Origin: a virus
Length of the DNA: 64,000 bases
Strand: one strand, 5' to 3'
IMG/VR virus record: IMGVR_UViG_3300037493_003174
Location: 18,342-82,341 of that record
A program made the position numbers and the translations under genes. Positions 8,000 through 32,914 of the stretch are shown here, piece after piece; position 1 is the stretch's first letter, and the number at the start of each line of letters is the position of its first letter. The notes beneath the pieces are model-generated. The model was not told where the DNA came from, made no database searches, and worked only from the letters and a program-made list of their open reading frames with translations.

Positions 8000-10966
8000 A
8001 TGGCAACGTACTTACAAGGAGTTACAGATTATATACCACAGTTTCAACCGTTTCAACCGGACCTGAACTTCTATGGTAATATAATGCAAACTAAGCAAAC
8101 CCAGTATGATACAAACTGGAAGTCTTTAAATAAAATGTATGGTCAGTATTATAATGCTGAGCTTACCCGTGATGGAAACATTTCAAAAAAAGATAGTTAT
8201 TTAAAAGAAATTGAGTTTAACTTAAAAAGAGTATCACAGCTGGATTTGTCTCTAGAACAGAATGTAACTCAGGCAACTCAAATCTTTAAACCATTCTATG
8301 AAGACAAGTCCTTAATGAAAGATATGGCTTGGACAAAGAATTACAACAACCAAAGCAATAGAGCAGAAATCTTTAAGGTTTCATCTGATGAAAAAGATAG
8401 AACTCAGTATTGGGAAACAGGTGTTAGAGAAATGCAATATTTAAAAGATGAGTTTAAACTTGCTACAGATAGTGAAGCAATGAACTTTTCTAATGTAGAG
8501 TATACTCCTTATGTTAATGCTGTTGAGAAAGCTCAGGATGTTGCTAAAGAAGCTGGTCTTTCTGTTGAGTCAGTTGACTTTAGTAAAGATGGTAGATGGA
8601 TTATAAAGACTAAGAATGGTCAACAACTTGTTGAACCCTTACAAAAGTTATTTGAAGCACGCCTTGGTAGTGATCCTGCTATTCAAGCTGTATATAAAAC
8701 ACAGTCTTTTGTAAATAGAAAAGATTATGCATATTCTAATGCAGCACAATTTAAAGGAGACAAGAATGCAGCAGAGATGAAATATCTTGAAAACAGTTTT
8801 AATGTTTTAAAAGAAAAAAGTACTGCAAGATATAAAGGTCTTCAAGAAAATTCTAAAAGCTATGATAATAAAATTGCTGATATTGAGAAGCAAATAAAAG
8901 ATGGAAAAGCATCTCCAGAAGCTACACAAGCTTTAGAGCAGTATAAGATGAACAAAGAGATCAATGATAAAGTTTTAGCCCGCGCAGAACAGGAACAAAA
9001 AGATCTTAATGGTGGTCAGTCAAGTACACCAACTACATCAAATGGTTTTGTTAATCCTTATGGAGATCTTAAATCATTAAGATGGAAAGTTGATAATGGT
9101 ATGGCTTCTTTGCTTATGCAAAAAGATTTAGATGAGGCAGCAAACATATTTGCATTTAAAGATGCAAAACAAGATATGGATGCTAATCCATATGCTGTAC
9201 TTGCTGATAAACATAAGTATAGCATGCAACAAATTGCAACTAGAAATGCTGGTCTTGCAAATGCAGCAAGAATCCGTAATGAAGGTGAAAGAAAAACCAT
9301 GCTTGACAAAGCTAGACTTACTGCTGGAACACATTATCAAGATGAACAGACAGGAGAGATCAAACCAATTGAAGCTCTTGATCAAGTGTTTACAAGACAG
9401 AATGCAAGTGGAACGGCAACTCCAGAATTAGATATGAGAAAGGTGAGCAAGCAGATAGTTTCAATACAAACTAAATCTGTTGCTATTCCTTATTTAAAAA
9501 ATGTAACCACACTTCTTGATCAGCTTGTAGCTAGCAAAAGTATGACAGAAAAACAAGCTTCTCAAATACTTGGTTATAACAAGAGTCCAAATATTAATAG
9601 AAAAACATTTAGTGATAAGCTAAATAAGTATGGAGTAACTTGGGTTACTAGTGAAGTTGGTGTAGAAGGTTTAAATAAGATAAAACGAAACATGTCTACA
9701 TGGTTAAGTCAAAATAATCAGTTGTCAGGTTTAGATGGAACAGCTTATAATAGTTTTAAAAAATCATCATTAATGTTTGATGACTATACAAATTACTTAA
9801 AGGCTGATCAAGAGTGGAAAGCAAAGTCTTCAAAAGAAGTAGAAGGTGAATTAAGAAGATTAGGTTATAAGAATGTAGATTACTTATATGATAATAATGG
9901 TAAGCAAAGAACTAAAGTAGAATACTTTGATGCACTAGCAAAAGCAGGTAAGATAAGTAAATCAGATGCTAAAGATTCTAAATCATATAAATCAGAAAAC
10001 AGAACCTGGTTACAAAAACTTGGACCAGGTAACTGGATTGATATGGCTGTTGAAGCATATAATGCACCAGATATTGATTATGATGAAATGGTTGGTGCTG
10101 CTAATAAAGTATATAGTACTGGAAAAGTAAAAGCTCAAGTTGTTGGTTTAGACAAACTAGGATCAATGTCAGGTTCAGGTACTTTTGCTCCTAATTCAAG
10201 TTCAATATTTGTAAATCCAAAAGGTCATACATCATCAAATATAAGATTTGGAGAAATACTTTCAGATATGAGTAATGTTGATTGGGGTGCTAATAATAAA
10301 AACAAAGTAACATTTGGAGGTACTAGCGCAAATTCATATAATACAGCTTCTGGAAAAAATAATACTGGTGTTGCTTTACTTGATCAAATTAGAGCAGAGT
10401 TAACTAGACCAGGTAAAACTAAGATGGGTAACTTTAGAGTTGACGTATCACCAATTGCAGCTGGAAGTATTAACAAATCTGCAGTTATTATTTATCCAGA
10501 TGCAACATGGTTAAAAGGACAAGTATATACTAAAAATAAAGAAGGTGTAAAAACTAAACCTGGATTAATTAGTGCAACTGAGTATGATCAAATTATGAAA
10601 AATGGTGTGTCATATGTAACTGATTCAGGAAATATGACAAACTCAGTTTATATGAGTGCTTATCAAACACCTTTAGAATCTTATGTTGATTACTTAGATA
10701 CTAAAGGTCAAGCTTATGTTTATACTGATCCTTTAAGTTCTAACTATTCATTTAGTATTGAAAAAAACAAACTAGGCACAGGAGATTATATAACAACTTT
10801 TAAATATCCTGTTTGGAATAATAGTACAAAAAAATATGATTTTGAAACTGCAAGAGACAATGTAACCAACTATGGTCAGGGTATGGAACAAGCAAGATTT
10901 CAAGCTATGGATTTGATAGAAAAGTATAAACAAATTAATAAAAGTTCATATAATGGCAACAGATAA
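8000..10966 (+). CDS. Virion cargo/ejection protein
   Basis: 988 aa, no Cys seen; N-terminus YIPQFQPFQPDLNFY...KQTQYD; directly precedes the giant-protein block. Confidence 0.55.
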   Translation: MATYLQGVTDYIPQFQPFQPDLNFYGNIMQTKQTQYDTNWKSLNKMYGQYYNAELTRDGNISKKDSYLKEIEFNLKRVSQLDLSLEQNVTQATQIFKPFYEDKSLMKDMAWTKNYNNQSNRAEIFKVSSDEKDRTQYWETGVREMQYLKDEFKLATDSEAMNFSNVEYTPYVNAVEKAQDVAKEAGLSVESVDFSKDGRWIIKTKNGQQLVEPLQKLFEARLGSDPAIQAVYKTQSFVNRKDYAYSNAAQFKGDKNAAEMKYLENSFNVLKEKSTARYKGLQENSKSYDNKIADIEKQIKDGKASPEATQALEQYKMNKEINDKVLARAEQEQKDLNGGQSSTPTTSNGFVNPYGDLKSLRWKVDNGMASLLMQKDLDEAANIFAFKDAKQDMDANPYAVLADKHKYSMQQIATRNAGLANAARIRNEGERKTMLDKARLTAGTHYQDEQTGEIKPIEALDQVFTRQNASGTATPELDMRKVSKQIVSIQTKSVAIPYLKNVTTLLDQLVASKSMTEKQASQILGYNKSPNINRKTFSDKLNKYGVTWVTSEVGVEGLNKIKRNMSTWLSQNNQLSGLDGTAYNSFKKSSLMFDDYTNYLKADQEWKAKSSKEVEGELRRLGYKNVDYLYDNNGKQRTKVEYFDALAKAGKISKSDAKDSKSYKSENRTWLQKLGPGNWIDMAVEAYNAPDIDYDEMVGAANKVYSTGKVKAQVVGLDKLGSMSGSGTFAPNSSSIFVNPKGHTSSNIRFGEILSDMSNVDWGANNKNKVTFGGTSANSYNTASGKNNTGVALLDQIRAELTRPGKTKMGNFRVDVSPIAAGSINKSAVIIYPDATWLKGQVYTKNKEGVKTKPGLISATEYDQIMKNGVSYVTDSGNMTNSVYMSAYQTPLESYVDYLDTKGQAYVYTDPLSSNYSFSIEKNKLGTGDYITTFKYPVWNNSTKKYDFETARDNVTNYGQGMEQARFQAMDLIEKYKQINKSSYNGNR

Positions 10967-13900: not shown

Positions 13901-16373
13901 AAGAGGTGAGTACTATCAGAAAATGATAACAGATCAGTTTGACATTGTAGTAGATAATGCTCTCTTAAATGCATTAGCTAATAAAAGTGTATACATTAGT
14001 ATGGATGACTTTGCTGCTTGGAAAAATGAAGGTATTCCACCGTCAGAGTTTTATGATCATGCAAGAAAGTTAGTTATACCTGAAGGAACAGAAGCCTATG
14101 ATGTATATTATATGCTTTTTGATCAAGCGGCTCAATTAAAAGCAGAGAAAAGTGGAACAGTACCATCATCATTAGATGCCGTTCTTAATGCAGATTTAGA
14201 AAAACTTGAATCACAAAAAGAAGCAGAGCTTAAGAATGTTCCAATGATTGAAACAAAAGTTTCTAAAGGTAAGTTAGAACCAAATTCTTCTGGTCAAATT
14301 ACTGCTAAGATGGTACAGGAACAACTTCAACCAAATACATATGCTGAAGCAAGTTATGGAGATGAAGACAATTTTATATTGTTCATGGATGAAGCTGGTA
14401 ATCTTAGAGAGAATGATGCTGAGGGAGCTGTTGTTGAAGTTAATAAGGTACCTGTTGCATTTACTTCTGTAGAAACTTATGTGATTGCAGAAAGACCTAA
14501 TCCAGAATATGCCCAGGAGATTGAAAAAAGATATGAAGATCTTAAAGAAGACAGGATCAATCAGTATACTGCGCAAGTAGAAGAGGTTGAGAAAAAAGAA
14601 AAAGAACAAAAGACTACAGAGATAGAACCAATTACTTCAGCTACTTCATTAGAAGATATTATCAGACGTTCTCCTGCTTTGTATAACAAGCTTAATAAAG
14701 AATTTACTGAAAGAGTTATTAAGAAAATGGATTCAGAGGAGTATGTAAATATGAATTCTGAGCAAGAAAGAAACTTGTTTGAAAAGTTTCTTCAATCTGA
14801 TCCAATTGCAAAAGGGCTTATTGATACTTACAACAAAGAGCAAAAGCTTGATGAAGCTACTAAAGAAACTGGTGAGAAAGAAGAATTTGAATTCATGTAT
14901 CAAGGTAAGATGGTTAAGACGGCAGATCTTAAAACCATTCAAGACCTTGAGAAAATGAAAAGAAGATTTGACAAGATGATTAAGGATATTAATGAGAGTG
15001 AAGATGCTACTACTGAAGATATGACTAACAAGTCTAAGTATAGTATTATCTCTAAAGACCTTGAAAAACTTATCAATACAAGAACTAAGAATGATGCTAA
15101 AGTATCAGATGAAATTACTGCTGATGAATATAATGACTTTGTTGATAATGGTATAGTTAAAGCTGGCCGTATCACTAAGATTGCAGAAAAAGTTAAGAAT
15201 GGTACAGACCTTACTCAACAAGAGAAAGAAATGTTCCAAGATAAAACTACTGAGATCAATGAAGAGCTCCGTAAGATGAATGAGAAAGATGCTGCTAAAG
15301 CTAAACCATCTGACATAGAAAAGGAACTATTTTCAGAAACTGATAGTAAAGGAAGAATTAATACTGTTTTTTCTACTACAAAAGAAAAAGATGGATTAAT
15401 TAAAACAACATTTACTTTTAATAGATCAGATAAAGACCCATCTCAAAGAAACAATATGATAACAGGTATTCCTGTAGAAAAAGCATTAGGTAATAAGTAT
15501 ACTATTGATGAGGAATACGTACCTGAAGGAGCCAAAGTAGTTGGAGTTTCTGAAATTAGAATAGATAAAACAGGTGCAGGAGCAACAGTTACTTTTGAAA
15601 TAGATGGAGAAAAATCTCAAGGTGAAGTTAAATTAAATACTAATACTACTTATGATGCAGAACTAGCTGCTTTAGAAAGTACTTCTGCTGCTGATACAAT
15701 TCCAGAAGATCCACAGTCTAGTGATGATGTTGATTCACCAACACAAGATAGTGATTCTAGAAAAGTAGAAGTAATTGATGATGCTAAGAGATATTCAATT
15801 GATGACTTTAAAGCAGATGTTGCAAAAGTTAAAACAATGGATGAGCTACAACAAATTGTTTCAGACTTACACATTAAAGTTTCTGAAGAAGCTGTTGCAT
15901 TTGAAGATTTACAAGTTATGTCTGAACTAGCTAAACAAAAAGCTGCAGAAATAAGAGCTGGAGATGTAAAAATTGATCCAATTGGTTTAACAGAAGGTAC
16001 TCAAGTTATAGCAAAAGAGATTATCTTTGATAATGCAAATATGTTTGCAATGGCTAATGATACTCTTGTAGTCAAGTCAGTTGATAAAACAAAGAAAACT
16101 ATTACAGTTACTCCTATGGGAAGTACAGAAGAAATGACTGTAGGCTTTGATAAGTTAAATGAAATGTTTATATTAAAAGATACAGTAATGGACACAACAG
16201 AACAAGTTACAGAACCTGTTACTAAAGAAGAACAGGAAATGGTTACTCAGTCATCAGATTTAGCTGATACTATACTAAACAGTCCTGATCAGTTAACAGA
16301 ACTTGAGAAAACTGTTTCTAAGAAAACAGTTAGTGAATTAGATGCTGAGTTATTAGAAGACTTGAAATGTTAA
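10953..16373 (+). CDS. Giant ejected virion protein 1
   Basis: 1806 aa; Gly/Ala-rich hydrophobic segment (VGLALATVGTAGGAAPILG), EGIQE motif and long charged helical regions; the only Cys is the last residue. Confidence 0.6.
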   Translation: MATDNNVPFSSLDSLGPEYGSINTPTIDAKGLAAFEGDRIDMPKINFEASESFTPTLPDVQNLNNPAAQVRKNVVGISPSKPGVNKNASVDDLKKSMKDYALATIRATADKNQYGKIYSYNAGPDGNAFYKRYQAYGQEKFDAIGFSPLRDNEALFNARTTQWDDFSRMMTNSFVPLFTRGFVSGPKSLGRMLTGDFTGTDLEDAAAYEEAAAIGQSSKGGFGGFATNALMNFSYSAGIITEAIVEEVGLALATVGTAGGAAPILGVRTGINIGRIGKALYKGVNFAGDGIKAINKTLDAVGSVKGAREFWNASKGFAKTVNPLSNTFDAYNLANKADNLNNLGRAYKTAGGFYRDVRNINMALSEARLEAGMVENGIYDNLYNEYYAKNNEAPSDDVQYDMMKQAKKGSLNTLYWNTGLIYGSNLITFPNIVGPKGGLRNFSKATIKELSEVSGGKFGKLGKVVYDQGKKKFAFEKNNFKNYVKGWAKDPIHKSLGNTVGYFKANFTEGIQENLQEVIGGANERYYTDTFKSGAVQSHNYSKSVSQYDYFSDELGKQFSAQGFETFASGFVMGTFASPLNKSFEYLGVGFNRMFNKEDYQKLKDKKLEITKDLVNNLNGIDVKDFLDAKIFNYGQQDIISKVKESGSKKEAMDADHEGLLNQMDLLIRNGSLESYQEKLRDLQQLTPEEFEDAVPTIPKGEGAKYQTKINDTIDKMDKINSRYKTYKEKFENPIDPDNLPPKGTPEYENAVTLHNAWEDSIKNAVFFNETFEDTMKRKRDILQKFNTQKPLQSLTQRDSEVIFDNDKLRNEVGLLKNEIESLKQLKDPASKEELKKKESKLAAMQKLGESTVSFTNFFNRYERSAEIREVLQKEKGDVPVTDEEVEAVMDEYFGEFSEENKIKQTSEYEAAFKDYLKTVANVNKDYLFDEKVDEAFELLTDHHKLDSEARSLIKGVNLLHDPAGFLDLVERNQKWMKDLYARRGEYYQKMITDQFDIVVDNALLNALANKSVYISMDDFAAWKNEGIPPSEFYDHARKLVIPEGTEAYDVYYMLFDQAAQLKAEKSGTVPSSLDAVLNADLEKLESQKEAELKNVPMIETKVSKGKLEPNSSGQITAKMVQEQLQPNTYAEASYGDEDNFILFMDEAGNLRENDAEGAVVEVNKVPVAFTSVETYVIAERPNPEYAQEIEKRYEDLKEDRINQYTAQVEEVEKKEKEQKTTEIEPITSATSLEDIIRRSPALYNKLNKEFTERVIKKMDSEEYVNMNSEQERNLFEKFLQSDPIAKGLIDTYNKEQKLDEATKETGEKEEFEFMYQGKMVKTADLKTIQDLEKMKRRFDKMIKDINESEDATTEDMTNKSKYSIISKDLEKLINTRTKNDAKVSDEITADEYNDFVDNGIVKAGRITKIAEKVKNGTDLTQQEKEMFQDKTTEINEELRKMNEKDAAKAKPSDIEKELFSETDSKGRINTVFSTTKEKDGLIKTTFTFNRSDKDPSQRNNMITGIPVEKALGNKYTIDEEYVPEGAKVVGVSEIRIDKTGAGATVTFEIDGEKSQGEVKLNTNTTYDAELAALESTSAADTIPEDPQSSDDVDSPTQDSDSRKVEVIDDAKRYSIDDFKADVAKVKTMDELQQIVSDLHIKVSEEAVAFEDLQVMSELAKQKAAEIRAGDVKIDPIGLTEGTQVIAKEIIFDNANMFAMANDTLVVKSVDKTKKTITVTPMGSTEEMTVGFDKLNEMFILKDTVMDTTEQVTEPVTKEEQEMVTQSSDLADTILNSPDQLTELEKTVSKKTVSELDAELLEDLKC

Positions 16374-16376
16374 GCT

Positions 16377-25300: not shown

Positions 25301-27041
25301 CCCAATCTTAAGTCAGTTTACTATACCAAACATTAAGACTGGAGAAAGAGTTTTGACTTTGAATGATAAAGCTATGTTGAAAGATCCTCAGTTAGCAGAG
25401 ATTTACTTTGAAAATCTGAAAGATTTGGCTGATGAGAATGTAAAGAAAGTTACAGATACTGAAGATAACAAAAGAATCAGTAAACTTTTTGGCCTGCTCC
25501 CTATAATGAGCATGTATCAACATGGTATAGGGTACAGTAAGTATGGATTTAATGAAGCACTTCCATATGAAGGCTTTATTGGTGTAATGCAAACTGCATC
25601 TGAGATCTTTATGAAGAGTCAGTTAAACAATGATACTCTTGGAAACATCTTTGAGTTAATGCTTGATTCACCTAATAGAGACTTTACTAATTTTGTAAGA
25701 GATCCTAAGACATATATTGCTCCTAAACCAGTTGTTCAACCTGTAGAAGAAGAAGTAATCATGGATGCTAATACTCCAATGATTGAAGACATGCTTGCTA
25801 TGGCTCAGAGTGCTGAAGAAGTTCCTACTCAGAGTGATATAAAAATTCCTAAAGTTGGAGACATTGTTACAATAAGTTTTTATATAAAAGGTGAAGATGT
25901 TGATGTAAAAGCAAAAATAGTGAAATTAGAAAACTATCTTGAAGCAAACATTTATAATAAAGGCTTTGAAGTAGATTTAGAAAATATCAAAACTGGTAAA
26001 AAATATGAAATATATGTAGATCCTGATGGAATTATTTCTCAATTTCAAGGTGAAAAAGGTTTAAGAATTGGAACTGATAACTATATAAAAGAATTTGATA
26101 TAGATTTACAAACTAAAACAACAACTACTACTCAACCATCTACTAGTGTTAAAGAAGTTATTCCAACTTATGGAGCTGTGCAAGTTGCAACTAATCCTAC
26201 AAAAGAGTTTGACAAGTATTTAACTGATGCAATTTCAGATAATATTAAAAATAATGCCTATGTTGAAAACGGTAGTAGCTCAGCTAATTTAATGTTTAGC
26301 TATGGATGGCAATGGAAAGGTAACAACTCTAAACAAGTTATTGGAGATAAACTTATTGTACAACCGGCTCAAGTAGATTTTAGTGGTAAAGGAAATCCTG
26401 TTGCCGTTAAGTCTAAATATTTTTATGATTCTAAGTATAATGATGGTGCTACAGTGCCAAATATATCAGAACTAGATTTTTTAAAGAAACATATTGAAAA
26501 GAATTTAGGTATTGACATGTCTGATTATGACATTGCTTTAAATAATATTTATACGCAGGGAACTAATTTATTCAGACATACTGATATTGATGAATCTAAT
26601 ACTGCAAAAAACTATCCAGTTGTTGTTTATGTTTTAGGAAATGAACATAAAGTAAGAATAGATGACAATGGTGGAGGTGCTGTAAGAGGTATGGGAGAAA
26701 TGGTTAATCCAAAAACTTTAACATTAAAGAATGGAGATATTTATACATTTGGTATGAATGGTAAAGGTAGATTTGAAGCTGTACATGATGTTATTAGAAC
26801 AAATAAAACAGATGATACTTTTCCACCAATAACTTTACCTGATGGAAGAACCATAAATAAGTATACAGTTACTTTTACATTCAGAAGAGCCGCTGATTTA
26901 GAACCAGGTATGCCAACTACACCCGCTAAGATTACACCTACTCAACAATCTACAGATACTCCTATAACAGAAACAATTACAAACAAAAATACACCTGAAG
27001 GTTTACCGGGAATTGATAGAACATCATCTGATTGTCAATAA
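16377..27041 (+). CDS. Virion-packaged single-chain two-barrel RNA polymerase with zincin domain and C-terminal AlkB-like 2OG-Fe(II) domain
   Basis: 3554 aa; RIPVQG and SGADYDVDK (DxDxD at 23265-23279, like DFDID of phi14:2 gp66); DGQGFI and KVG motifs; HEAWH...EELLAEEF zincin (18795-18809); HTD...H...TFR near the C-terminus. Confidence 0.88.
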   Translation: MKIQCALSESQIKKLYSNVYGNMVEQGDAFNPEQYMKDLFNKIAKNSDVDTAAKFMQQVPSMIGTASFRPALEDFEIKTDSLKPLIKKFKKSENGIDNTVKFFRPQLDPDVEKELIEKKALSAFHIAEKTSDTVPADPFNYQTYSSLSTTFQEFISKNPNEDIQTETFDPGRRTIYSTLAAIREEANNNTPLRELVYQDTILKLKPVRLSEVDENLLDKTTKRLVNRAAYLKGSGQAQSYVTTPDNIFLMVISDKDGIPLQFNEQGDIVAEGGQLVYQFLREVRKDGNKFKVTDIYGRSEQIIDPAILAEKSGITLEEAQVRQQDEFKELYEFREKLIKGDSPLVDIVGVSQGISEIKPNALNLSNISIILEDNDHAIRTLSVVKSPRSGFEKGEGVITIKGVEYKVDRPNLTAELTKKIATVLTNKELTNKEKYDYVSQLLADKASNDTRKHELEYLEKTDKLMFSYSPTTFAEGYSKFIDVDLNSPEAFQQITDALTNASGKDGKYFSAKMTYSDNAIEKGYQDYDLATNTLSDDYQDYFALIKGLPNTKIFADISIDSRSFNSYMGFAIPNQFTEQLAKAQESTETVNKDDFFESMVDESLTPGEEMFNTLMKEAISTEARGWKTIVDQETGKLHKDNYYMSTYLTNQLKNNARRFTKETMQEVLDNYSTFRRPSKTEMEIIQKEFDKAFAPQVTKAKSIEEVQNEINSYIDPKNVPTPESNGPGDAFFLRKGDLPSDVSTEQVEDAKQWWANSPLNKHIGLKQVANIVNSNAYARFIAYGAALNGNLGMIEVAATGNMVDVYHEAWHGFSQLYLTKAEKKALYNEVLRRTGKSLSFFEIEELLAEEFRDYAKNQKTVKDAPKRNSLFRKILDFLKALFGKGSVTNLSEISTVKELFDNLYLGKNLNNYTPLIDNVMFDLLYRNSGIVKPGTETDQVLNRQDSNLLKDSMDSIISDIIDNEVSKRDNKGATLSILLDKRNREPLYNMIKQNLEAKLKTYETQLEETPENEENEYKRDILQNRIRIIQTGLENYGDTKSGLVQYHVENSSYDLVRQKYTALELDEEGNLVEPENATDTERYGDQKVNDKSLIQLAGKETLYILKSLYQAKINKKTGQVEYEYNELGFKKLADFRSTWNNTVRAIGGIQDPQQMYDKLMQESETVPEFKQLVQSKLPNPKVFTNNAFEFQATTSFWQDFSKTRVPYIQLTVFKNQIGEKIEYNNFTGAEIKIPIYEYDAQVTEASNEVGNIVRMFKENFRANQNNPYVERVGRDNTPMLNLGKVVDSFSSQGKLDVNQSYGFARALGFNLSDLSIIKNTLKKDNKTIEEFGLPYIFDIIKKLHEKEQLPNTNSTTRSLISKFRENPIETLSKGIPANIISTSEIIQKNKVIAIASLEARYGTRTSNSMVLNAEKNLVSEFIDNHTISKQVYALNNAKKLSDLWTTDEFKHMSYMDPAINSYTNRLGIIRSLYDLKSPEQSRRTTRSFLLFANSGTQVENEDGFNTTSLDVNSKMIQEMHTMLKDGVQEFMRHASKSSSFGARIEGGVIGLPGKEGGDNKLWVDLDMFGKGTAFDYALKSHLLPYMEAEAERIYRFKINKDEFKKYAGYNRVLSSGKMAGEEFTAFDDVISDSLKKQIYDAIDSAVKNKTLFNLSSFLKQDTTGALGVLRGDVKKYFDEQTKENLEMLQESKYISQDLKDRMKIFNLSDDQVEQKLVETFTYNSWIHNFEMGILFYGDFAQYNHYKEEMHKRNTGATSGGRGFRSDIAARNFVNGYLATTSYAKKQGISAIAYNGTFNTAIIQDVIRDSEYLGQIEKGLRKDYEKRYKNAGVPNAEKVINERLKIELSKYKGMEEGDGQGFITFDAYRTLRHLENAWSNEQEILFQRIAKGDNVTTSEIKELFPVYKVQHFGNLANTGLPINAMHKFALAPLIPSVIAGSDLENLHRQMMTKNIQYVTFQTGSKVGSVTSEVNDKGEAVADKIYDDKDQKSLKRDIAFTPNVIYLENLKNVTNVPNKFKNKTVFSTQLRKLILGGMYRNGKIINPKNSVAVKSYEAAVDAYSNILKLELLHEIGYEYNPKTKKYTGNIQDFLEVVQRELERKDLPEHLIQMVGLNRDKSIKTDLSLHLKADDIEKILVSLVEKRLIKQKVKGEALVQVASSMSNGMWDNKLKKATNADILKYMGTNNLPFYNNDTADGKTAAMKVAVALQGDFANLLKLNHLDGEVIGTRQRLNEMIKDDKWMDLDNNRKAVTISAVRIPVQGINSMEFMEIYDFLDPAAGNIIIPPSEIVAKSGADYDVDKLTTFMPSIDSNGQYVETGLTNDEVLKKVNELSGNERGSKVARALIKKQKAALENRLINTIKSILELPDNYAALVRPNDTYLLKDEIADVIQDDVIEYNRFKNVNSKDYRVNKKGEKVISPTRILESRYNLHKHDVNTIAKRVLGMIAIENALHPIFNSIGVSMPATYKDSIFDDSLGRYVDGKNDYDVRLMLPHNKTDDGRVSLSGTDTVDGMDNIGELFSQMMNGAVDVEKDAWIFFIQGNYEITPMITFLLKAGVPKETAILFASNPIVREYAKQQRIIKSAYSKVTGTIAENFIPTMGKYQAAVNALAKFGIKDGAQKVSQKKYYNAVTKATGASGILNSKGEFDLELMKKIIKNPNEPSLRNHMEAMFLHFIELEKSSRGFTTLKFLSNPDTKTSKTLQEVIRRNMSLEDAKAMSKIEEGTVDKLKETVLGTFFDNKLISDLIVPLFPLRNNDTVTNFILKTSAERAGAVAKRFGKGQDGTRSFITQFKNAIPNYIFQNYMSNFVDENGKLTSMPKNFNKMDVVSKVGVKNGAEIINGKLFVDDARLRKEYQEGLYYRNNTMPGNYSESGLRGLGALVIFESEAAYFRYVFERENQRNLYSLESLLKNKDFKKMRELTANDKEAYEAYINQRALINAFNRVAIMGLEGQSYTDMVLDMIEEFSQLKGRYPILSQFTIPNIKTGERVLTLNDKAMLKDPQLAEIYFENLKDLADENVKKVTDTEDNKRISKLFGLLPIMSMYQHGIGYSKYGFNEALPYEGFIGVMQTASEIFMKSQLNNDTLGNIFELMLDSPNRDFTNFVRDPKTYIAPKPVVQPVEEEVIMDANTPMIEDMLAMAQSAEEVPTQSDIKIPKVGDIVTISFYIKGEDVDVKAKIVKLENYLEANIYNKGFEVDLENIKTGKKYEIYVDPDGIISQFQGEKGLRIGTDNYIKEFDIDLQTKTTTTTQPSTSVKEVIPTYGAVQVATNPTKEFDKYLTDAISDNIKNNAYVENGSSSANLMFSYGWQWKGNNSKQVIGDKLIVQPAQVDFSGKGNPVAVKSKYFYDSKYNDGATVPNISELDFLKKHIEKNLGIDMSDYDIALNNIYTQGTNLFRHTDIDESNTAKNYPVVVYVLGNEHKVRIDDNGGGAVRGMGEMVNPKTLTLKNGDIYTFGMNGKGRFEAVHDVIRTNKTDDTFPPITLPDGRTINKYTVTFTFRRAADLEPGMPTTPAKITPTQQSTDTPITETITNKNTPEGLPGIDRTSSDCQ
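26128..26953 (+). repeat. 16-bp direct repeats CTACTCAAC(C/A)ATCTAC flanking the AlkB-like domain
   Basis: Copies at 26128-26143 and 26938-26953, 15/16 identical, 810 bp apart, same codon phase. Confidence 0.65.
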
Positions 27042-27054
27042 AATTTAGTATATT
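27039..27054 (+). promoter_or_regulatory. Putative late promoter motif TAAAATTTAGTATATT
   Basis: Identical to 1895-1910, with the same spacing to the ATG. Confidence 0.6.
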
Positions 27055-27070
27055 TAATTAAAGAAAAGAT

Positions 27071-30000
27071 ATGCCTTGTCCAAATAAAATAAGATCAAAT
27101 TTATTTAATGAAGTTCTTGCAAAAGCTACGCCTGCTAAAAGTATGTCTATAGAAGGTGCAAGAGAATTAGCAAGAACTCTTAATAGAGAGTATGGTGCTA
27201 GTGTAGTGACTGTAGAACTAGGTGATGTTATAGAAGTAAATGTATCTATACCAGAATCACTTGTTAATACATACTATGCAAGTGAGTTGGCTATTGAGAT
27301 GAGAGAACTTGCACAAGCTGAAAAAGAAGCAAGAGCAATGCAGAGAGAAGATGCTGAACGCGCAGGTGTTGAGTATACTGATGATTATCTTAAAGATGAA
27401 GACTTAGCAGAAATATTTACTGAAGAACAAGTACAAGCTGCAAGAGATCAAGAGATAGCAATGAAGTTAGGTCAGAAGTTTAAAAATGCTTTTGGTATTG
27501 ACTACAAAATAGTTTCTCCATCTGAGGCTGCCATTATTCTAAAAGATAGTCCAACTCCATTTACTGTAGGCACTGCAGGTTTCTTTTATGGTAACCAGGT
27601 ATATTTTGTTAAGGGTTATTTCAACTCAAATTCAGTAATGCATGAATTTAGTCACCCTTTAATTAAAGGTATACAGTATCAGAATCCAAAATTATTTGAA
27701 AACTTATATGCTCAGTTAGCTACATCAGCAAATGGTCAAGCAGCAATTCAGTATGTAAAAGATCAGTATCCTGAATTAGAAGAAGGAACAATTAGATTTA
27801 AAGAGGAAGCTATTGTTACTGCAATGGAAATGGATGCTCAAATGAAATTGAACAACATCAAATCAGATGACAGTTTATTTAACAAATTTATTCAGAACTT
27901 ACTCTATGCATTAAAGAAAGTTCTTAAAGCTCTAACAAATAAAGTAAATCTTCAGAAGCTTGATACAACTACAACTCTTGATCAGTTAGTTGATATGATG
28001 ATTAATGAAGACTTTGTTATTCAGGATCTCAACTTCCAACAAAGTTTATTTGCAGAGTTCAAAAAAGAAACAGATCAGTTCTTAAAAGAATTAGAAGAAG
28101 TTACACCAAAGGACTTAATTAAAACTATTGACAAGTTCCATAATGAAATGTCATTCCAGTTGGGCCAGTTAAGAAACTCACCAAAGAAATTAAAAACTGA
28201 GTTAGGTAAAGATGGTATTGATCTTATTAAAAACATCAGAGACTATGTTAAAGGATATAAAACATCCGGAGAAGTTAGTGATGAAGAACTTGAAGTACTT
28301 ATTGAAGCTCTACAAAAAGATGAAAGAGATTTAAGATTGAGATCTCTTGCCTTTATTAACAGTTTAGCTGAGCTTAATGTATTTGCTAGAAGAATAGAAA
28401 AGATCATGAATGATCTAAGAACTTCTAAAGCATACCAGACTGAAGAAGGAAACCAAAAAATCCAGTATTACAAACAGTTCATGGAAAGACAGGTTAAATT
28501 CTTAAGAGATGTTAGCAAGCAGATTGGTCTTGATCCGTCAAATGAGTTGAGTAAAAAGATTTATTCTATCAAAGGTTTGATGGAAAATAATATTGAGAAA
28601 GCAAAAGACATGACATTTGATTATGTTAAAGATTTCTTATTGGATCAGACTCAAGTTATGCAAAGAAATGTTAAAGGGAACTTAGTAGAGAAAATTAATG
28701 ATCTTTTAAAAATTGATGGTTATAATGAAGCAGATAGTCAAAAAATTGTACAAGAGCTTCTTGATAAACTAGATATTGATAAGCAAAGAAATATTACTGA
28801 AGAAACTCTGGGTCTTCCAAATAAAACTCCTAGGTTTAAGTATTACAAAAAAGCAATTCAAAATTATAATGCTAATAAGATTTTAGAAGATACAGTTGAT
28901 GATTACCTAAGAGGTCATGTTAAAGACCTTGGAATGGCTGGTGCTATGCTAAATCCTCTAGGGAATATTAATGACTTGTTTGGATCCTTTGTTCAATACA
29001 TGCGTAAGAAAATTGCTGATGCTGAAGTACAAAGTCAGCAAGAACAAATGAGATTTGTACAAAGTCTTGTACCTGATTTGAATGCCCTAGGGTATAATCC
29101 AAATGATACTTCACAACTTGCAGACTTAGTTTTGTTTGTTGATAAAGAAGGTATAGTAGATGAGGAAGGAAACTATGAAGAGTATGAAGTATATTCATAT
29201 ATTGATAAGTTCAAGAACTGGAGAGCAGATAAAGCTAAACTTCAGGCAGATTTAAAAAAGGCTAAGATTAAAGGAGATAGAGAAGCCATTAAGGAAGCTA
29301 TGCAGGCTATGAGAGATTTTGAAAGAGATCACATGGTCCGTAGATACAAAGATAAAGTATTTGATGTACAGAATATCTGGTTACAGGCTAATGTTATCTA
29401 TGACCCAAGTTCTAAAAAAGATATTGTTATCTCTTCTGACATTGCATTAGATGCATTTACTGAAAAGAAAGAAGCAATTGCTGAGTTAAGTACTTATAAC
29501 TCTAGTGACTTTACAACTCTTGAGGATTTATTAGAATTTACTCCATCCGCGGCAGCTAAAATAAGATACAATGAGCTATTTAATCTTTATGACAATGATG
29601 GTAATTTTAAGCAAGGTGAAGAGTTACAAAGAGTTCTTGTAAGAAGACATCATAGAGAGCAATCTAGAAAGTTCAATGAGTCTGTATCTAATGTTGAAAG
29701 ATTCCAAAAAGACTTTGACAATTTTGTTAATCAAGAATTGGCAGGGTTAGGTATAACTTATGATAGTGATCCTGCAAGATATGAAGCTGAAGTAAAAAAG
29801 TTCCTAGATAAAAACACTAGAATAGCTTATGATGATAGTTACTTCCAAGATAGAAACAGGATCCTTGATAATATTCAGAAGATAAATGATAAAGCAAAAG
29901 GAGCTGACATATCTATTAGACTAGCTGCATTATATGAACAACGCTCTCATATAGTTAATAAGGTTACTGATAAAGATGGGGAGCCAAATGGAACTGAACT

Positions 30001-32914
30001 ACCTCTTGATTCACTTAAAAGATTAAAATCTCTTGAAGAAGAAATAGTAGATCTTCAAGATCAGTTTGATAAAAAGACTGGTTTATCTAAAGATGACTCA
30101 AGAAAACTTAGATACTATGAAGAGTTTATTATTGGAAAAGGTTTAGCATCAAAGATGACTCCTGAGCAGAAAAAAGAATATGTAAATTTATCTTCTAAAG
30201 CTAAAGCATTTGGTTTATCAGATACAGAAATTGCATATTTAAGAAATCAGTTTAGACAGTTGGCAGAAATGACCAATACCTTTGCTACTGATTATTATGT
30301 ACAAGCCTTTAATACAGCACTTGGTACTAGCGATGTAGCACCAATTACTATTGACACAGCAGATGAGTGGATTAATGGTGATATGGTATTGGCAGCAAAG
30401 ACTGGTAACTCAAGATTTTCAGAGTGGTTTGATAGAAATCATTATATGAAAAGAGCATACAATCCTAAGACTGAGCAGTATGAAGACATGTACATTAGAA
30501 CTAAAGCTTGGAGTGTAAGTAGACCATCTGATGAAAAGTACATGAAGAAAACTACTATTATAGATCCATCAACAGGAAAAGAAATTCCAATCAATGGTGT
30601 ACCCGTAGCTAAGTATTCATATACTAGAATTAAAGATGAGTATAGAACTGGATATAACCCAGTAACTAAGAAAGTAGAACTTGAAGTTGGTGTTCATATT
30701 GATAACCGTGGTAATTTTTTACCAAAAGAAGTTGCATTGAATGCTCCTAACTCAAAGTACATGAATGAAAAGTACTATGAAATTAAGAGTAAAGGTGGAC
30801 CACAATTTCATTTACTAGAAACTCTTAAAAAAGAAAGAATTAAAGCTCAAGAAAATTCACCTTATGCCTCTAGATTATATTTAGACTTTCCAAGATTTAG
30901 AATCACTGAAAATTTAGAGTACAAACAATCTGGAAACTTAACAAAAGATATAAAGGATAAGAAGAGTGCAATAGTTGATTCAGCAAAAGCCTTAGTAAAA
31001 CAAGTAGCTGATGATGCAGAAAGAGGAGCTAATTATATTGATAAATTCTTATTTGTTCCAACTGACTTACAAGGAAATCCAATTTCTAAAGTTCCAGTAA
31101 GAGGTTTATATAAACTTGACGTTAATGTAGTTTCTAAAAATGTATTAAAGTCTGAGTTAAATTACATGAACTCATTAGATATCCAGAAGGTATTAATAGA
31201 AGCAGAACCAACTGTAAAAGCATTGGTAGATGTACTTGGAGATCCTGAAAATGCTCTAGATAAATTAAATATGGCCAGCTCTACTCTATCTAAAGCGCAA
31301 GATAAAGCTGCAGTATTCTTAAAGAGAGAAACAAACAACAGACTTCAAGTTGCAATAGATGTTATGGATAGAACTTTCTATGGTCAGACTGTAAGTGAGT
31401 TTCAACAAGAAAATCCTGTCTTCTCAAAGTTTGTAAGAGGTTCTCTAGGTGCTGCATCATTTGCATTCTATAACTTAAATCCAGTATCTACAATAAAGAA
31501 TAAGTTAGGAATGAACTTTCAGAAAATGATTTTTACATCTGGAGGTAAGTTTATAAGCTTTCCATCTATTGCAAGAGGTAAAGTAAAAGCAACAAAAGTA
31601 CTATTTGAATATGCTACTAAAGATGCTTATGCAAGAGGAGTTAAAGGTTTAGATATGCAGATAGCAGATGCATTTAATATGGCTCCAGGTAAAGCTAAAC
31701 AAGAAATTGGTAAATCAGCTACAAATACAACTGTCAAAGAATTATTAGATGGAGCATGGATGTACTCTGATAGAAAGCTTACTGAATTCCAGGGCTCATT
31801 AGAGTTAGGATATAGCATGCTTGACTGGCAAATGATAGATCAAATTCAACCAAATGGTGAGGTAACACAAATTAGATATGTAGATGCGTTTGAAACAGAT
31901 GCTGATGGCATTGCAAAACTTAAAGCAGGAATCAATCCTGAATGGGGTATGAACTATGTTGATCATGTTGTAGAGGCTGGAGATACATTAGCTTCACTTG
32001 CTAAAAAATACAACATGACTGTTGAGGAGTTAGCAGCCAAAAATAAAATTGATGCAAAAGCTAGTCTTGAAGAAGATCAATCAATTATTATCTCAAGAAA
32101 TGAGAAATTTAATATGATAAAACTTAGAATTGCTAGTGCAAACAAAAAGTTAAATGGTACAGTAGAAGCAATTGAATCACCAACTGCTGAGAAGAATTTA
32201 CTTTATGATGTATTTACTTTCTCAAGAAAGTTTGGTACAGGTATGTTCTTATCTAGATTCCAGACAGATTTGTCTAAAGAAAATAGATTTGGAGAAGTTT
32301 GGGATTGGGATTTGAATGAAACAACAAGAGGTAAATATATTACTTTCTTAAGTGGTTTAAATAACTTAATACGTGATGGTAAAAATTACTATCCAACTAT
32401 GACTGATGATGAAAAGTCAGCATTTAGAGAAGTTATTTTTGAAGGTGTATCTTTATTCCTAATGGGTCTTGCAGTATCATTACTGTTTGGTTTTGATGGG
32501 GATGATGAAGACAGATTTAAAAAACTAAAAGAACGTGAAGAAAAATATGGTACAGCAGGTTGGTTAGCTAATCACATGTTGTATCAGTTAATCATGGTTC
32601 AAAAAGAAAATAGCACAATGATACCTTTACCTGGTATGGGTGCTGGTGACTGGTTAGACTTTACTAAAACAAGTACTATAGCTATGGGACCAACATTAGA
32701 ACTTTATCTTAAGATTACAAAAGATATGTACTATATTCTAACAGGAAATGATAAAGCAGTTTATAAACAAGAGGTTGGGCCATATGAATGGCAAGATGAA
32801 GGTCACTATAAATTATGGAATCACGTAGGATCAATCTTTGGATTATCTGGTAAAAACTTAAGTCCTTACTGGGCAATTAAGAAGAATGAAATATTTACTA
32901 ATTTAAAAGGTTAA
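27071..32914 (+). CDS. Giant ejected virion protein 3 (zincin + LysM + hydrophobic helix)
   Basis: 1947 aa; HEFSH...KEEAIV (27641-27655); LysM HVVEAGDTLASLAKKYNMTVEELAAKN (about 31961-32092); VSLFLMGLAVSLLFGF helix; the only Cys is residue 3. Confidence 0.7.
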   Translation: MPCPNKIRSNLFNEVLAKATPAKSMSIEGARELARTLNREYGASVVTVELGDVIEVNVSIPESLVNTYYASELAIEMRELAQAEKEARAMQREDAERAGVEYTDDYLKDEDLAEIFTEEQVQAARDQEIAMKLGQKFKNAFGIDYKIVSPSEAAIILKDSPTPFTVGTAGFFYGNQVYFVKGYFNSNSVMHEFSHPLIKGIQYQNPKLFENLYAQLATSANGQAAIQYVKDQYPELEEGTIRFKEEAIVTAMEMDAQMKLNNIKSDDSLFNKFIQNLLYALKKVLKALTNKVNLQKLDTTTTLDQLVDMMINEDFVIQDLNFQQSLFAEFKKETDQFLKELEEVTPKDLIKTIDKFHNEMSFQLGQLRNSPKKLKTELGKDGIDLIKNIRDYVKGYKTSGEVSDEELEVLIEALQKDERDLRLRSLAFINSLAELNVFARRIEKIMNDLRTSKAYQTEEGNQKIQYYKQFMERQVKFLRDVSKQIGLDPSNELSKKIYSIKGLMENNIEKAKDMTFDYVKDFLLDQTQVMQRNVKGNLVEKINDLLKIDGYNEADSQKIVQELLDKLDIDKQRNITEETLGLPNKTPRFKYYKKAIQNYNANKILEDTVDDYLRGHVKDLGMAGAMLNPLGNINDLFGSFVQYMRKKIADAEVQSQQEQMRFVQSLVPDLNALGYNPNDTSQLADLVLFVDKEGIVDEEGNYEEYEVYSYIDKFKNWRADKAKLQADLKKAKIKGDREAIKEAMQAMRDFERDHMVRRYKDKVFDVQNIWLQANVIYDPSSKKDIVISSDIALDAFTEKKEAIAELSTYNSSDFTTLEDLLEFTPSAAAKIRYNELFNLYDNDGNFKQGEELQRVLVRRHHREQSRKFNESVSNVERFQKDFDNFVNQELAGLGITYDSDPARYEAEVKKFLDKNTRIAYDDSYFQDRNRILDNIQKINDKAKGADISIRLAALYEQRSHIVNKVTDKDGEPNGTELPLDSLKRLKSLEEEIVDLQDQFDKKTGLSKDDSRKLRYYEEFIIGKGLASKMTPEQKKEYVNLSSKAKAFGLSDTEIAYLRNQFRQLAEMTNTFATDYYVQAFNTALGTSDVAPITIDTADEWINGDMVLAAKTGNSRFSEWFDRNHYMKRAYNPKTEQYEDMYIRTKAWSVSRPSDEKYMKKTTIIDPSTGKEIPINGVPVAKYSYTRIKDEYRTGYNPVTKKVELEVGVHIDNRGNFLPKEVALNAPNSKYMNEKYYEIKSKGGPQFHLLETLKKERIKAQENSPYASRLYLDFPRFRITENLEYKQSGNLTKDIKDKKSAIVDSAKALVKQVADDAERGANYIDKFLFVPTDLQGNPISKVPVRGLYKLDVNVVSKNVLKSELNYMNSLDIQKVLIEAEPTVKALVDVLGDPENALDKLNMASSTLSKAQDKAAVFLKRETNNRLQVAIDVMDRTFYGQTVSEFQQENPVFSKFVRGSLGAASFAFYNLNPVSTIKNKLGMNFQKMIFTSGGKFISFPSIARGKVKATKVLFEYATKDAYARGVKGLDMQIADAFNMAPGKAKQEIGKSATNTTVKELLDGAWMYSDRKLTEFQGSLELGYSMLDWQMIDQIQPNGEVTQIRYVDAFETDADGIAKLKAGINPEWGMNYVDHVVEAGDTLASLAKKYNMTVEELAAKNKIDAKASLEEDQSIIISRNEKFNMIKLRIASANKKLNGTVEAIESPTAEKNLLYDVFTFSRKFGTGMFLSRFQTDLSKENRFGEVWDWDLNETTRGKYITFLSGLNNLIRDGKNYYPTMTDDEKSAFREVIFEGVSLFLMGLAVSLLFGFDGDDEDRFKKLKEREEKYGTAGWLANHMLYQLIMVQKENSTMIPLPGMGAGDWLDFTKTSTIAMGPTLELYLKITKDMYYILTGNDKAVYKQEVGPYEWQDEGHYKLWNHVGSIFGLSGKNLSPYWAIKKNEIFTNLKG

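What the first reader, a model, noticed from the sequence alone, without database searches (positions are those of the whole stretch)
10953..32914. Three giant ejected proteins have cysteines only at their facing termini: a candidate head-to-tail covalent ejection chain
Seen: reading the translations (1806+3554+1947 = 7307 aa) I find just four Cys. They are the last residue of protein 1 (EDLKC*, 16368-16370), residue 5 (MKIQC, 16389-16391) and the penultimate residue (SSDCQ*, 27033-27035) of the RNAP, and residue 3 of protein 3 (MPCPN, 27077-27079). The outer ends have none. Known: the N4 virion RNAP is Cys-free, and crAss-like giant proteins are packaged and ejected. Inference: tail-to-head disulfides (or metal bridges) link P1-RNAP-P3 in gene order into a single chain of about 7300 residues. 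This would fix stoichiometry and ejection order, with release in the reducing cytoplasm. I do not know of a prior description.
Basis: partly seen in the sequence, partly recalled or inferred. Interest (0 to 1): 0.9.

Follow-up and report, generated by a model that had tools for sequence, protein, structure and literature searches.

The report
Terminal cysteines chain crAss cargo proteins
Three giant proteins of this crAss-like phage, with its particle-borne RNA polymerase in the middle, have no cysteine except one at each end that faces the next protein; hundreds of relatives keep this rule, add a pair where an extra protein is inserted and lack it where genes are fused, which points to still untested end-to-end disulfide links.

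Summary
P1 (10953-16373), P2 (16377-27041) and P3 (27071-32914) total 7307 aa and hold four Cys: P1 last residue, P2 residues 5 and 3553, P3 residue 3.

It is not chance. Other ORFs here carry about 1% Cys. In 66 non-redundant related loci:
- P1 has a C-terminal Cys in 52/52 and an N-terminal Cys in 0/52.
- P2 has both in 53-55 of 55.
- P3 has an N-terminal Cys in 58/58.
- Only 11 internal Cys occur in about 430,000 residues.

Cultured and named crassviruses (phi14:2, crAss001, DAC15, others) follow the same rule. In crAss001 it holds although the P1 gene lies on the other strand.

An extra protein between P2 and P3 carries Cys at both ends. P1-P2 and P2-P3 fusions lack the junction pair. Tail Cys and head Cys co-occur at 168 of 169 junctions.

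Cyanophage A4 shows the same signature with a disulfide seen by cryo-EM (gp27 Cys1715 to gp26 Cys5).

Best reading: a head-to-tail disulfide chain P1-RNAP-P3. The pairing is well supported. The bond chemistry, stoichiometry and reductive release are untested.

I found no published description for crassviruses. This scan noted the same pattern earlier on other genomes.

The parts
8000..10966 (+). P0, a 988-aa upstream cargo-like protein with no cysteine; not part of the chain
   Evidence: Its homologues hold 0 Cys in 32,356 residues over 33 loci.
10953..16373 (+). P1, an 1806-aa giant protein whose only Cys is the last residue; proposed first link of the chain
   Evidence: The P1-family HMM hits crAss001 gp47 at E 6e-23.
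16368..16370 (+). TGT codon for P1 Cys1806, in the C-terminal tail ...ELLEDLKC*
   Evidence: It is the only invariant column in the last 300 residues of 53 homologues.
16377..27041 (+). P2, a 3554-aa crAss-type virion RNA polymerase with Cys only at residues 5 and 3553; proposed middle link
16389..16391 (+). TGT codon for P2 Cys5 (MKIQC...)
   Evidence: Invariant in alignments A1 and A3. In the AlphaFold2 model it lies in the non-helical residues 1-8 ahead of helix 9-29; residues 1-4 have pLDDT below 50.
18795..18809 (+). HEAWH (HExxH, zincin-like) motif in the N-terminal part of P2
   Evidence: Invariant H807 E808 A809 W810 H811 in 26 homologues; sequence shown.
23265..23279 (+). DYDVD, the candidate catalytic DxDxD motif of the two-barrel RNAP
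   Evidence: D2297, D2299 and D2301 are invariant. The motif lies inside the region aligned to the phi14:2 vRNAP.
26403..26804 (+). AlkB-like 2OG-Fe(II) oxygenase module between the RNAP body and the conserved C-terminal Cys tail
   Evidence: Pfam PF13532, E 3.9e-6, 27.7 bits, below the 31.2-bit curated cut-off. Homologues carry other modules at this position.
27033..27035 (+). TGT codon for P2 Cys3553 (...TSSDCQ*)
   Evidence: Invariant in A1. A C-terminal Cys is present in 55/55 complete P2.
27071..32914 (+). P3, a 1947-aa giant protein whose only Cys is residue 3; proposed last link
27077..27079 (+). TGT codon for P3 Cys3 (MPCPN...)
   Evidence: An N-terminal Cys at residues 3-7 is present in every full-length P3 homologue down to 24% identity and in 58/58 loci.
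31964..32092 (+). LysM peptidoglycan-binding domain of P3
   Evidence: Pfam PF01476, E 5.8e-10.
32429..32485 (+). The only strongly hydrophobic 19-residue segment in the whole cargo block (P3 residues 1787-1805)
   Evidence: Kyte-Doolittle scan.

Best explanation
P1, the virion RNA polymerase P2 and P3 are packaged cargo proteins of a crAss-like phage. They are kept free of cysteine except for one thiol within 1-10 residues of each end that faces the next protein. In the assembled particle the C-terminal Cys of P1 most likely pairs with Cys5 of P2, and the C-terminal Cys of P2 with Cys3 of P3. This would give one linear chain of about 7300 residues, P1-S-S-P2-S-S-P3. Because the bonds sit at the extreme termini, the chain would stay thread-like, with side stubs of 10 residues or fewer. 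It could then pass through the tail channel in partly unfolded form, each protein pulling the next. Shown here: the pattern, its deep conservation, the coupling of facing Cys, and its gain and loss with gene insertion and fusion. Inferred: that the bond is a disulfide, that the complex is 1:1:1, the order of exit (the LysM domain and hydrophobic segment at the P3 C-terminus suggest that this outer end meets the envelope), and separation by reduction in the cytoplasm.
For: 1. The pattern is exact in the window.
2. Conservation in homologues. Nearly all full-length P2 homologues among the 120 listed have exactly two Cys, at residue 3-6 and 1-5 (once 9) residues from the C-terminus. P3 homologues keep the N-terminal Cys down to 24% identity and lack a C-terminal one. 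P1 homologues keep only a C-terminal Cys.
3. Counts in 66 non-redundant loci: P1 C-terminal Cys 52/52 and N-terminal 0/52; P2 N-terminal 53/55 (in one of the two exceptions, L020, the MKVTC start lies 12 residues downstream of the called ATG) and C-terminal 55/55; P3 N-terminal 58/58; 11 internal Cys in 429,837 residues against 1.07% in neighbouring genes.
4. The terminal Cys is the only invariant column in the last 300 residues of P1, where mean column identity is 19%.
5. Tail Cys and head Cys are coupled at 169 junctions: both 102, neither 66, discordant 1, and that one is a start miscall.
6. The rule holds in other crassviruses and relatives: phi14:2, crAss001, DAC15 and cr85_1, Suoliviridae cr1_1, cr118_1, cr7_1, cr10_1 and cr109_1, Intestiviridae cr271_1 and Flavobacterium phage Fpv1.
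7. It holds where the P1-like gene is on the opposite strand (crAss001, DAC15, cr85_1). It is therefore a protein-level feature and not a signal at the gene junction.
8. Five loci have an extra 242-655-aa protein between P2 and P3 with exactly two Cys, residue 3 and the last residue. Its C-terminal module is homologous to the extreme C-terminus of P2 in relatives that lack the extra gene (E 1e-8 to 1e-18). The tail type K.LK..C is always followed by a CPI-type head, whichever protein bears the tail.
9. P1-P2 fusions (cr1_1, cr118_1 and cr108_1 with sequence evidence; Fpv1 by architecture) have no N-terminal Cys and no junction pair, but keep the C-terminal Cys and the head Cys of the next protein. 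The P2-P3 fusion in cr271_1 keeps Cys3, has no C-terminal Cys, and has no Cys between residues 2545 and 3679 around the inferred junction.
10. Structural precedent: Anabaena phage A-4L/A4 gp27 (1717 aa, sole Cys 1715) and gp26 (1114 aa, sole Cys 5) are disulfide-bonded in the cryo-EM pre-ejectosome (PMC12002296).
11. crAss001 virions contain inter-subunit disulfides in the tail and at the portal vertex (PMC10172136).
Against: No experiment shows the bond. Phage assembly takes place in a reducing cytoplasm, and many crassviruses live in anoxic guts. Gut crassviruses tolerate more internal Cys (13 in the cr7_1 giant protein, 14 in the cr271_1 giant protein), so the Cys-free rule is not absolute. 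In some phages the C-terminal Cys lies 9-11 residues from the end (crAss001 gp50, cr10_1). The counts are not phylogenetically independent. The fold of the P2 N-terminal domain shows no similarity to A4 gp26 or to any PDB chain, so the A4 case is an analogue and not a homologue. Charge complementarity of the facing ends is weak.
Confidence: 0.65

Rival explanations
1. The topology is the same but the chemistry differs. The facing terminal thiols share a metal ion (Zn, Fe or Cu), or make another reversible contact, so the proteins are joined end to end without a disulfide.
For: The comparative data establish pairing but not the type of bond. A metal bridge would form in a reducing cytoplasm.
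Against: Each end contributes a single Cys. In the last 300 residues of P1 no other column is invariant, so there is no conserved His, Asp or Glu ligand. Near P2 Cys5 the next invariant residue is Q57. The one solved case with the same signature is a disulfide.
Confidence: 0.1
2. The terminal Cys are functional but do not join neighbours. They might form homotypic dimers (P1-P1, P3-P3, P2 chains), tether each protein to another virion part such as the portal or a gp45-like cargo protein, or act in maturation or processing of the ends.
For: Several copies of each protein are thought to be packaged; Bayfield et al. give 6 of each as an example. crAss001 gp45 and DAC15_59 contain Cys.
Against: This reading does not explain why the N-terminus of P1 and the C-terminus of P3 never carry Cys (0/52 and 1/58, the one case being an inserted middle link). 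It does not explain why an inserted protein has Cys at both ends. It does not explain why both partners of a junction are missing together in fusions while the other junction is kept. In this phage the upstream cargo proteins P0 and the 1233-aa protein have no Cys to bond with.
Confidence: 0.15
3. There is no function. Selection removes Cys from ejected proteins, as is known for N4-like phages, but is relaxed at disordered ends, where Cys persist by drift or because of nucleotide signals at gene junctions.
For: Cys suppression in ejection proteins is established (PMC11445570). In the model Cys5 lies in the non-helical N-terminal stretch ahead of the first helix.
Against: The Cys are invariant over lineages that share only 20-30% identity, while every neighbouring residue varies. 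They are enriched and not merely tolerated: 4 Cys in the 20 terminal residues against about 1-2% expected. They are present only at facing ends. They persist where the genes are not adjacent.
Confidence: 0.03

Closest known systems
Cyanopodophage A4 (Anabaena phage A-4L, Saffermanviridae) ejection proteins gp27 and gp26; pre-ejectosome cryo-EM, PNAS 2025, PMC12002296
   Same: Two consecutive, otherwise Cys-free large ejection proteins. The upstream one has its sole Cys 3 residues from the C-terminus (1715 of 1717) and the downstream one has its sole Cys at residue 5. The two are seen disulfide-bonded, with the C-terminal helix of gp27 lying in a cleft of gp26.
   Different: A4 has one bond between two proteins of a T7-like pentameric core. 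It has no RNA polymerase and no three- or four-member chain. I detected no sequence or fold similarity. The paper reports the bond as a local stabiliser and not as a general rule.
Crassvirales cargo block: phi14:2 gp65-gp66(vRNAP)-gp67 (GenBank gp076-078; Drobysheva et al., bioRxiv 10.1101/2020.03.07.982082) and crAss001 gp47, gp50, gp49 (Bayfield et al. 2023, PMC10172136)
   Same: The RNAP core is homologous (E 2.6e-22 to phi14:2) and P1 is homologous to gp47 (HMM E 6e-23). The three-giant-protein architecture at the end of the virion module is the same. All three proteins were found in virions by MS. The terminal-Cys pattern is identical.
   Different: This clade is very divergent: no PHROG hit and about 23% identity in the RNAP core. 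Its P2 is 3554 aa and carries an HExxH motif and an AlkB-like module. Neither paper mentions these cysteines: the word cysteine occurs 0 times in either text, and disulfides are discussed only for tail and portal-vertex proteins.
Schitoviridae (N4-like) ejection operon: N4 gp50 vRNAP, gp51, gp52; DEV gp71-73 (PMC11445570)
   Same: A giant virion RNA polymerase is ejected with partner proteins, and cysteine is strongly suppressed in all of them.
   Different: The N4-like proteins are reported as essentially Cys-free throughout, with no conserved terminal Cys. Here one Cys is kept at each facing end.
Fused polyprotein forms of the same block (Suoliviridae cr1_1, cr118_1, cr7_1, cr10_1, cr109_1; Steigviridae cr108_1; Intestiviridae cr271_1; Flavobacterium phage Fpv1)
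   Same: The modules are the same, joined by a peptide bond in place of the proposed disulfide. Fusion was noted by Drobysheva et al..
   Different: The fused junction has no Cys pair, while the remaining free junction keeps its pair. Drobysheva et al. assumed that polyproteins are cleaved. The present reading suggests instead that covalent continuity is what is conserved.

Membership tests
crAss-type virion RNA polymerase (two-barrel, phi14:2 gp66-like): P2 | Conserved DxDxD catalytic motif | tested here: met
   DYDVD at 2297-2301. D2297, D2299 and D2301 are invariant in 26 homologues.
crAss-type virion RNA polymerase (two-barrel, phi14:2 gp66-like): P2 | Sequence homology to the structurally characterised phi14:2 vRNAP across the catalytic region | tested here: met
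   BLASTP E 2.6e-22 over 607 aa; tblastn E 6e-18. Also hits crAss001 gp50 at E 1.5e-12. However, phmmer and a profile search against PDB sequences found nothing.
crAss-type virion RNA polymerase (two-barrel, phi14:2 gp66-like): P2 | Two double-psi beta-barrel fold | not tested
   The catalytic region was not folded.
crAss-type virion RNA polymerase (two-barrel, phi14:2 gp66-like): P2 | Packaged in the virion and active on ejection | not testable with these tools
   Known for phi14:2 and crAss001 by MS and inferred here by homology and synteny.
Disulfide-linked ejection-protein pair (cyanophage A4 gp27-gp26 type) | The upstream protein has its only Cys within a few residues of the C-terminus and the downstream protein has its only Cys near residue 5 | tested here: met
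   Window. A-4L.
Disulfide-linked ejection-protein pair (cyanophage A4 gp27-gp26 type) | Physical S-S bond between the two termini in the virion | not testable with these tools
   Needs non-reducing gels, MS or cryo-EM.
Disulfide-linked ejection-protein pair (cyanophage A4 gp27-gp26 type) | Homology to gp26 or gp27 | tested here: not met
   No PDB sequence hit for P1, P2 or P3 apart from LysM. Foldseek of the P2 N-terminal model gave no match at E <= 0.001. I therefore treat A4 as an analogue and not as a family member.
Cys-suppressed ejection proteins (N4-like) | Near-absence of Cys compared with the rest of the proteome | tested here: met
   Internal Cys 0 of 7307 here and 11 of 429,837 in relatives, against 1.07% background.
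Cys-suppressed ejection proteins (N4-like) | No conserved Cys at all | tested here: not met
   Terminal Cys are invariant.

The most novel reading that the evidence does not exclude
Across Crassvirales and their relatives the injected cargo is one redox-latched protein train. Up to four giant proteins, about 0.7-1 MDa including the virion RNA polymerase, would be concatenated head to tail by terminal disulfides (or by peptide bonds where genes are fused), ejected as a single thread in a fixed order, and released or activated when the host cytoplasm reduces the links. The tail and head modules would form a portable connector code that lets new cargo proteins be spliced into the train.
Probability: 0.35. 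Interest if true: 0.85.

Novelty: new variant of a known kind. Interest (0 to 1): 0.78.

Why it matters
Crassviruses are among the most abundant viruses of the human gut. How they pack and deliver several hundred kDa of cargo, including the polymerase that starts infection, is an open question; the crAss001 atlas could not resolve these proteins. A simple, order-wide sequence rule predicts the topology of the cargo (which end touches which) and suggests 1:1:1 stoichiometry. It offers a mechanism for ordered ejection and for switching on the polymerase. It explains why gene fusions and splits are tolerated in this block. The idea can be tested directly with existing cultured phages (phi14:2, crAss001, DAC15) and possibly with already deposited reduced and non-reduced MS data. 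It would also extend the single disulfide seen in cyanophage A4 into a wider principle for ejected phage proteins.

Tried and rejected
- PHROGs found no family for P0, P1 or P2, and only LysM for P3.
- blastn of the region against the phage collection gave no match.
- phmmer of P1, P2 and P3 against PDB sequences gave nothing useful. The profile of 26 P2 homologues against PDB gave no hit, although pairwise BLAST to phi14:2 is significant.
- Foldseek of the P2 N-terminal 400-aa model (pLDDT 71) against PDB gave no match at E <= 0.001 and no A4 gp26.
- Charge complementarity of facing ends gave no clear signal. The P1 tail has mean net charge -3.1, but the outer P1 N-terminus is also acidic and the P2 head is neutral.
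- The P1-family HMM did not detect phi14:2 gp078 or the N-terminal half of the Fpv1 4401-aa protein. The P3-family HMM did not detect gp49 or gp076. tblastn with the Fpv1 N-terminal half found only Flavobacterium phages. The Fpv1 P1-P2 fusion therefore rests on size and architecture only. P3 orthology with gp49 rests on position, the shared CPN/CPI head motif and the pattern.
- The p-crAssphage record was not in the collection under two accessions.
- Pfam on ten Cys-rich or small early ORFs found no thioredoxin, DsbA or Erv-type oxidoreductase. This check was not exhaustive.
- Single-sequence locus searches found only relatives at 96-97% identity.
- I rejected the idea that the Cys codons reflect translational coupling or ribosome-binding signals at gene junctions, because crAss001, DAC15 and cr85_1 keep the pattern with P1 on the other strand.
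Full report
**Observation.** The window is bases 18342-82341 of an 82-kb IMG/VR viral contig estimated 69% complete. Three consecutive + strand ORFs end the rightward gene block; downstream genes run the other way:
- P1, 10953-16373, 1806 aa
- P2, 16377-27041, 3554 aa
- P3, 27071-32914, 1947 aa

Translation gives exactly four Cys in 7307 residues: P1 residue 1806 (the last), P2 residues 5 and 3553 (the penultimate), and P3 residue 3. The outer ends, P1 N-terminus and P3 C-terminus, have none.

Other ORFs of the window hold 0.3-6.7% Cys. Upstream genes on the contig are Cys-rich, for example 67 Cys in 870 aa. The phage as a whole therefore does not avoid cysteine. Two more upstream proteins are fully Cys-free: 1927-5628 (1233 aa) and P0, 8000-10966 (988 aa). 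Placing four Cys uniformly, one within five residues of each facing end, has p of about 5e-12.

**Identity of the proteins.** PHROGs and PDB sequence searches are blank except for a LysM domain in P3.

P2 is nevertheless a crAss-type virion RNA polymerase. It has a DYDVD motif at 2297-2301 that is invariant in 26 homologues. Residues 1716-2310 align to the phi14:2 virion RNAP (BLASTP E 2.6e-22; tblastn E 6e-18). They also align to crAss001 gp50 and to 'putative RNA polymerase' genes of other crassviruses.

P2 additionally carries an invariant HEAWH (HExxH) motif at 807-811. It has an AlkB-like module at 3343-3476, a Pfam hit below the curated cut-off. A profile of the P1 family hits crAss001 gp47 at E 6e-23.

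P3 has a LysM domain at 1632-1674 and the only strongly hydrophobic segment of the block at 1787-1805.

**Conservation.** Three database searches returned 282 homologues of P2, 87 of P3 and 371 of P1.
- Nearly all full-length P2 homologues among the 120 listed, down to about 41% identity, have exactly two Cys. One is at residue 3-6 (MK[IV]xC...) and one is 1-5 (once 9) residues from the C-terminus. This holds although the domain just upstream of the tail varies (AlkB, YbiA, PF18760, PF25176, helicase). The exceptions are truncated or mis-started gene calls.
- Every full-length P3 homologue, down to 24% identity, has a Cys at residue 3-7. Most have none elsewhere and none has a C-terminal Cys.
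- P1 homologues have one Cys, within the last 1-4 residues, and none at the N-terminus.

A scan of viral contigs with the P2 alignment fetched 78 loci, down to 30% identity, that contain the whole block. Among 66 non-redundant loci:
- P1 has a C-terminal Cys in 52/52 and an N-terminal Cys in 0/52.
- P2 has an N-terminal Cys in 53/55; in one of the two exceptions, L020, the MKVTC start lies 12 residues downstream of the called ATG. It has a C-terminal Cys in 55/55.
- P3 has an N-terminal Cys in 58/58.
- P0 has 0 Cys in 32,356 residues.
- Internal Cys number 11 in 429,837 residues, against 1.07% in neighbouring genes.

In an alignment of the last 300 residues of P1 from 53 phages, with mean column identity 19%, the terminal Cys is the only invariant column. 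In the first 400 residues of P2, Cys5 is one of eight invariant positions.

**Facing pairs.** I examined 169 non-redundant junctions between consecutive + strand ORFs of at least 200 aa in these loci. A Cys in the last ten residues of the upstream protein and a Cys in the first ten of the downstream protein are both present at 102 junctions and both absent at 66. They are discordant once, and that case is a start-codon miscall. These counts are not phylogenetically independent.

**Cultured and named crassviruses.**
- phi14:2: gp078 (1797 aa) has Cys only at 1797; the vRNAP gp077 (2180 aa) at 3 and 2179; gp076 (1421 aa) at 3.
- crAss001: gp47 has Cys 2339 of 2341; gp50 has 5, 1334 and 2404 of 2412; gp49 has 5.
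- DAC15 and cr85_1 show the same pattern.

In crAss001, DAC15 and cr85_1 the P1-like gene lies on the opposite strand from the other two. The pattern is therefore a property of the proteins and not of gene junctions.

**Natural experiments.**

Insertion. In L018, L021, L024, L026 and L046 an extra protein of 242-655 aa sits between P2 and P3. It has exactly two Cys, residue 3 and the last residue. Its C-terminal 120-180 residues are homologous, end to end, to the extreme C-terminus of P2 in relatives without the extra gene (E 1e-8 to 1e-18). The tail type K.LK..C is always followed by a CPI-type head, whichever protein carries the tail.

P1-P2 fusion. In cr1_1 (4551 aa), cr118_1 (4946 aa) and cr108_1, gp47-like sequence precedes the RNAP core in one polypeptide. 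Fpv1 (4401 aa) shows the same by architecture only. These proteins have no N-terminal Cys and no junction pair. They keep a C-terminal Cys, and the next protein keeps its head Cys. cr7_1, cr10_1 and cr109_1 behave likewise.

P2-P3 fusion. The 4620-aa protein of cr271_1 joins a gp50-like core to a gp49-like C-terminal region. It keeps Cys3, which faces the C-terminal Cys of P1. It has no C-terminal Cys, and no Cys between residues 2545 and 3679 around the inferred junction.

The loss of both partners of one junction, with the other junction retained, argues for the pairing P1-C with P2-N and P2-C with P3-N. It argues against other pairings and against homotypic dimers.

**Precedent and literature.** A note from this scan on another genome pointed to cyanophage A4, and I checked it. 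In Anabaena phage A-4L, gp27 (1717 aa) has a single Cys at 1715 and gp26 (1114 aa) a single Cys at 5. The cryo-EM paper reports a disulfide between exactly these residues, with the C-terminal helix of gp27 lying in a cleft of gp26 (PMC12002296).

Suppression of Cys in ejected proteins is described for N4-like phages (PMC11445570). crAss001 virions contain inter-subunit disulfides in tail and portal-vertex proteins. gp47, gp49 and gp50 were found in particles by MS, but the cargo cysteines are not discussed (PMC10172136). The phi14:2 RNAP preprint mentions neither cysteine nor disulfide. It does note that the three proteins are fused in some phages. Further searches found no description of terminal cysteines in crassvirus cargo. 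This scan has flagged and followed up the same pattern on other genomes.

**Mechanism.** The most likely reading is a linear chain P1-S-S-P2-S-S-P3. It would form inside the particle, or on exposure to oxidant. All bonds lie within ten residues of a terminus, so the concatenate stays thread-like and can pass a narrow tail channel in partly unfolded form. Internal Cys would be excluded to avoid off-pathway cross-links, the known rationale for N4-like phages. Reduction in the cytoplasm would separate the parts.

What is shown: the pattern, its conservation, the coupling of facing Cys and the fusion and insertion behaviour. What is inferred: the disulfide chemistry, the stoichiometry, the order of ejection and reductive release.

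The AlphaFold2 model of P2 residues 1-400 (pLDDT 71) places Cys5 in the non-helical stretch of residues 1-8 before helix 9-29; residues 1-4 have pLDDT below 50. That is compatible with a reachable thiol. The model matches no solved fold.

**Verdict.** I class this as a new variant of a known kind. The known kind comprises disulfide-linked, Cys-depleted ejection proteins with one solved pair, in A4. The variant is a three- to four-member chain with the virion RNA polymerase in the middle, conserved across an abundant viral order.

Noticed in passing
window 18795-18809 (P2 residues 807-811): An invariant HEAWH (HExxH, zincin-type) motif lies in the N-terminal third of the RNAP polypeptide. Drobysheva et al. 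place a zincin-like protease in the neighbouring protein of phi14:2, so domain distribution among the three proteins differs between clades.
   Followed up: partly
window 25800-27041, and P2 homologues P0001-P0120: Between the RNAP body and the conserved C-terminal Cys tail, homologues carry different accessory domains: AlkB-like PF13532, YbiA/DUF1768 PF08719, PF18760, PF25176 and helicase domains. This looks like a swappable effector slot. The tail with the Cys is kept whichever domain precedes it.
   Followed up: partly
L090 21798-22087 (uncultured phage cr108_1, MT774385): The fused P1-RNAP gene is interrupted inside the catalytic motif (...AKAGSD | LYDIDK...) by about 290 non-coding bases. 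This is probably a self-splicing intron in the RNAP active-site codons.
   Followed up: no
window 5637-7940: A 767-aa protein inside the otherwise Cys-free cargo block has eight Cys clustered at residues 448-505. This may be a metal-binding module.
   Followed up: no
L011 7386-26531: A P2 homologue of 6381 aa has only two Cys (residue 5 and the last residue). It is followed at once by an ORF that starts MSCPI..., so the terminal rule holds even for a 700-kDa polypeptide.
   Followed up: partly
L091 (cr7_1) and L094 (cr109_1): The cargo genes of these Suoliviridae contain 9-148 in-frame stop codons under table 11, which indicates stop-codon recoding in late genes. The terminal Cys pattern persists, but internal Cys are more frequent in cr7_1.
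   Followed up: no
P3 N-termini: window 27071-27100: The P3 head carries a widely shared motif around the Cys (C-P-N/I-x-x-x-P-E-W/F). It is found from this clade to Suoliviridae and Steigviridae, although the proteins are otherwise undetectably similar.
   Followed up: partly
window 46347-46772 and 60608-62020 (- strand): Homing-endonuclease-like genes (SegE GIY-YIG, E 1.5e-19; a NUMOD1-containing 470-aa protein with 18 Cys) lie among the early genes.
   Followed up: no
genome C1:1731-4343, upstream of the window: An 870-aa protein with 67 Cys (7.7%) and further Cys-rich proteins lie just upstream of the Cys-free cargo block. They may be external tail or fibre parts and make a sharp contrast in Cys usage within one virion module.
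   Followed up: no
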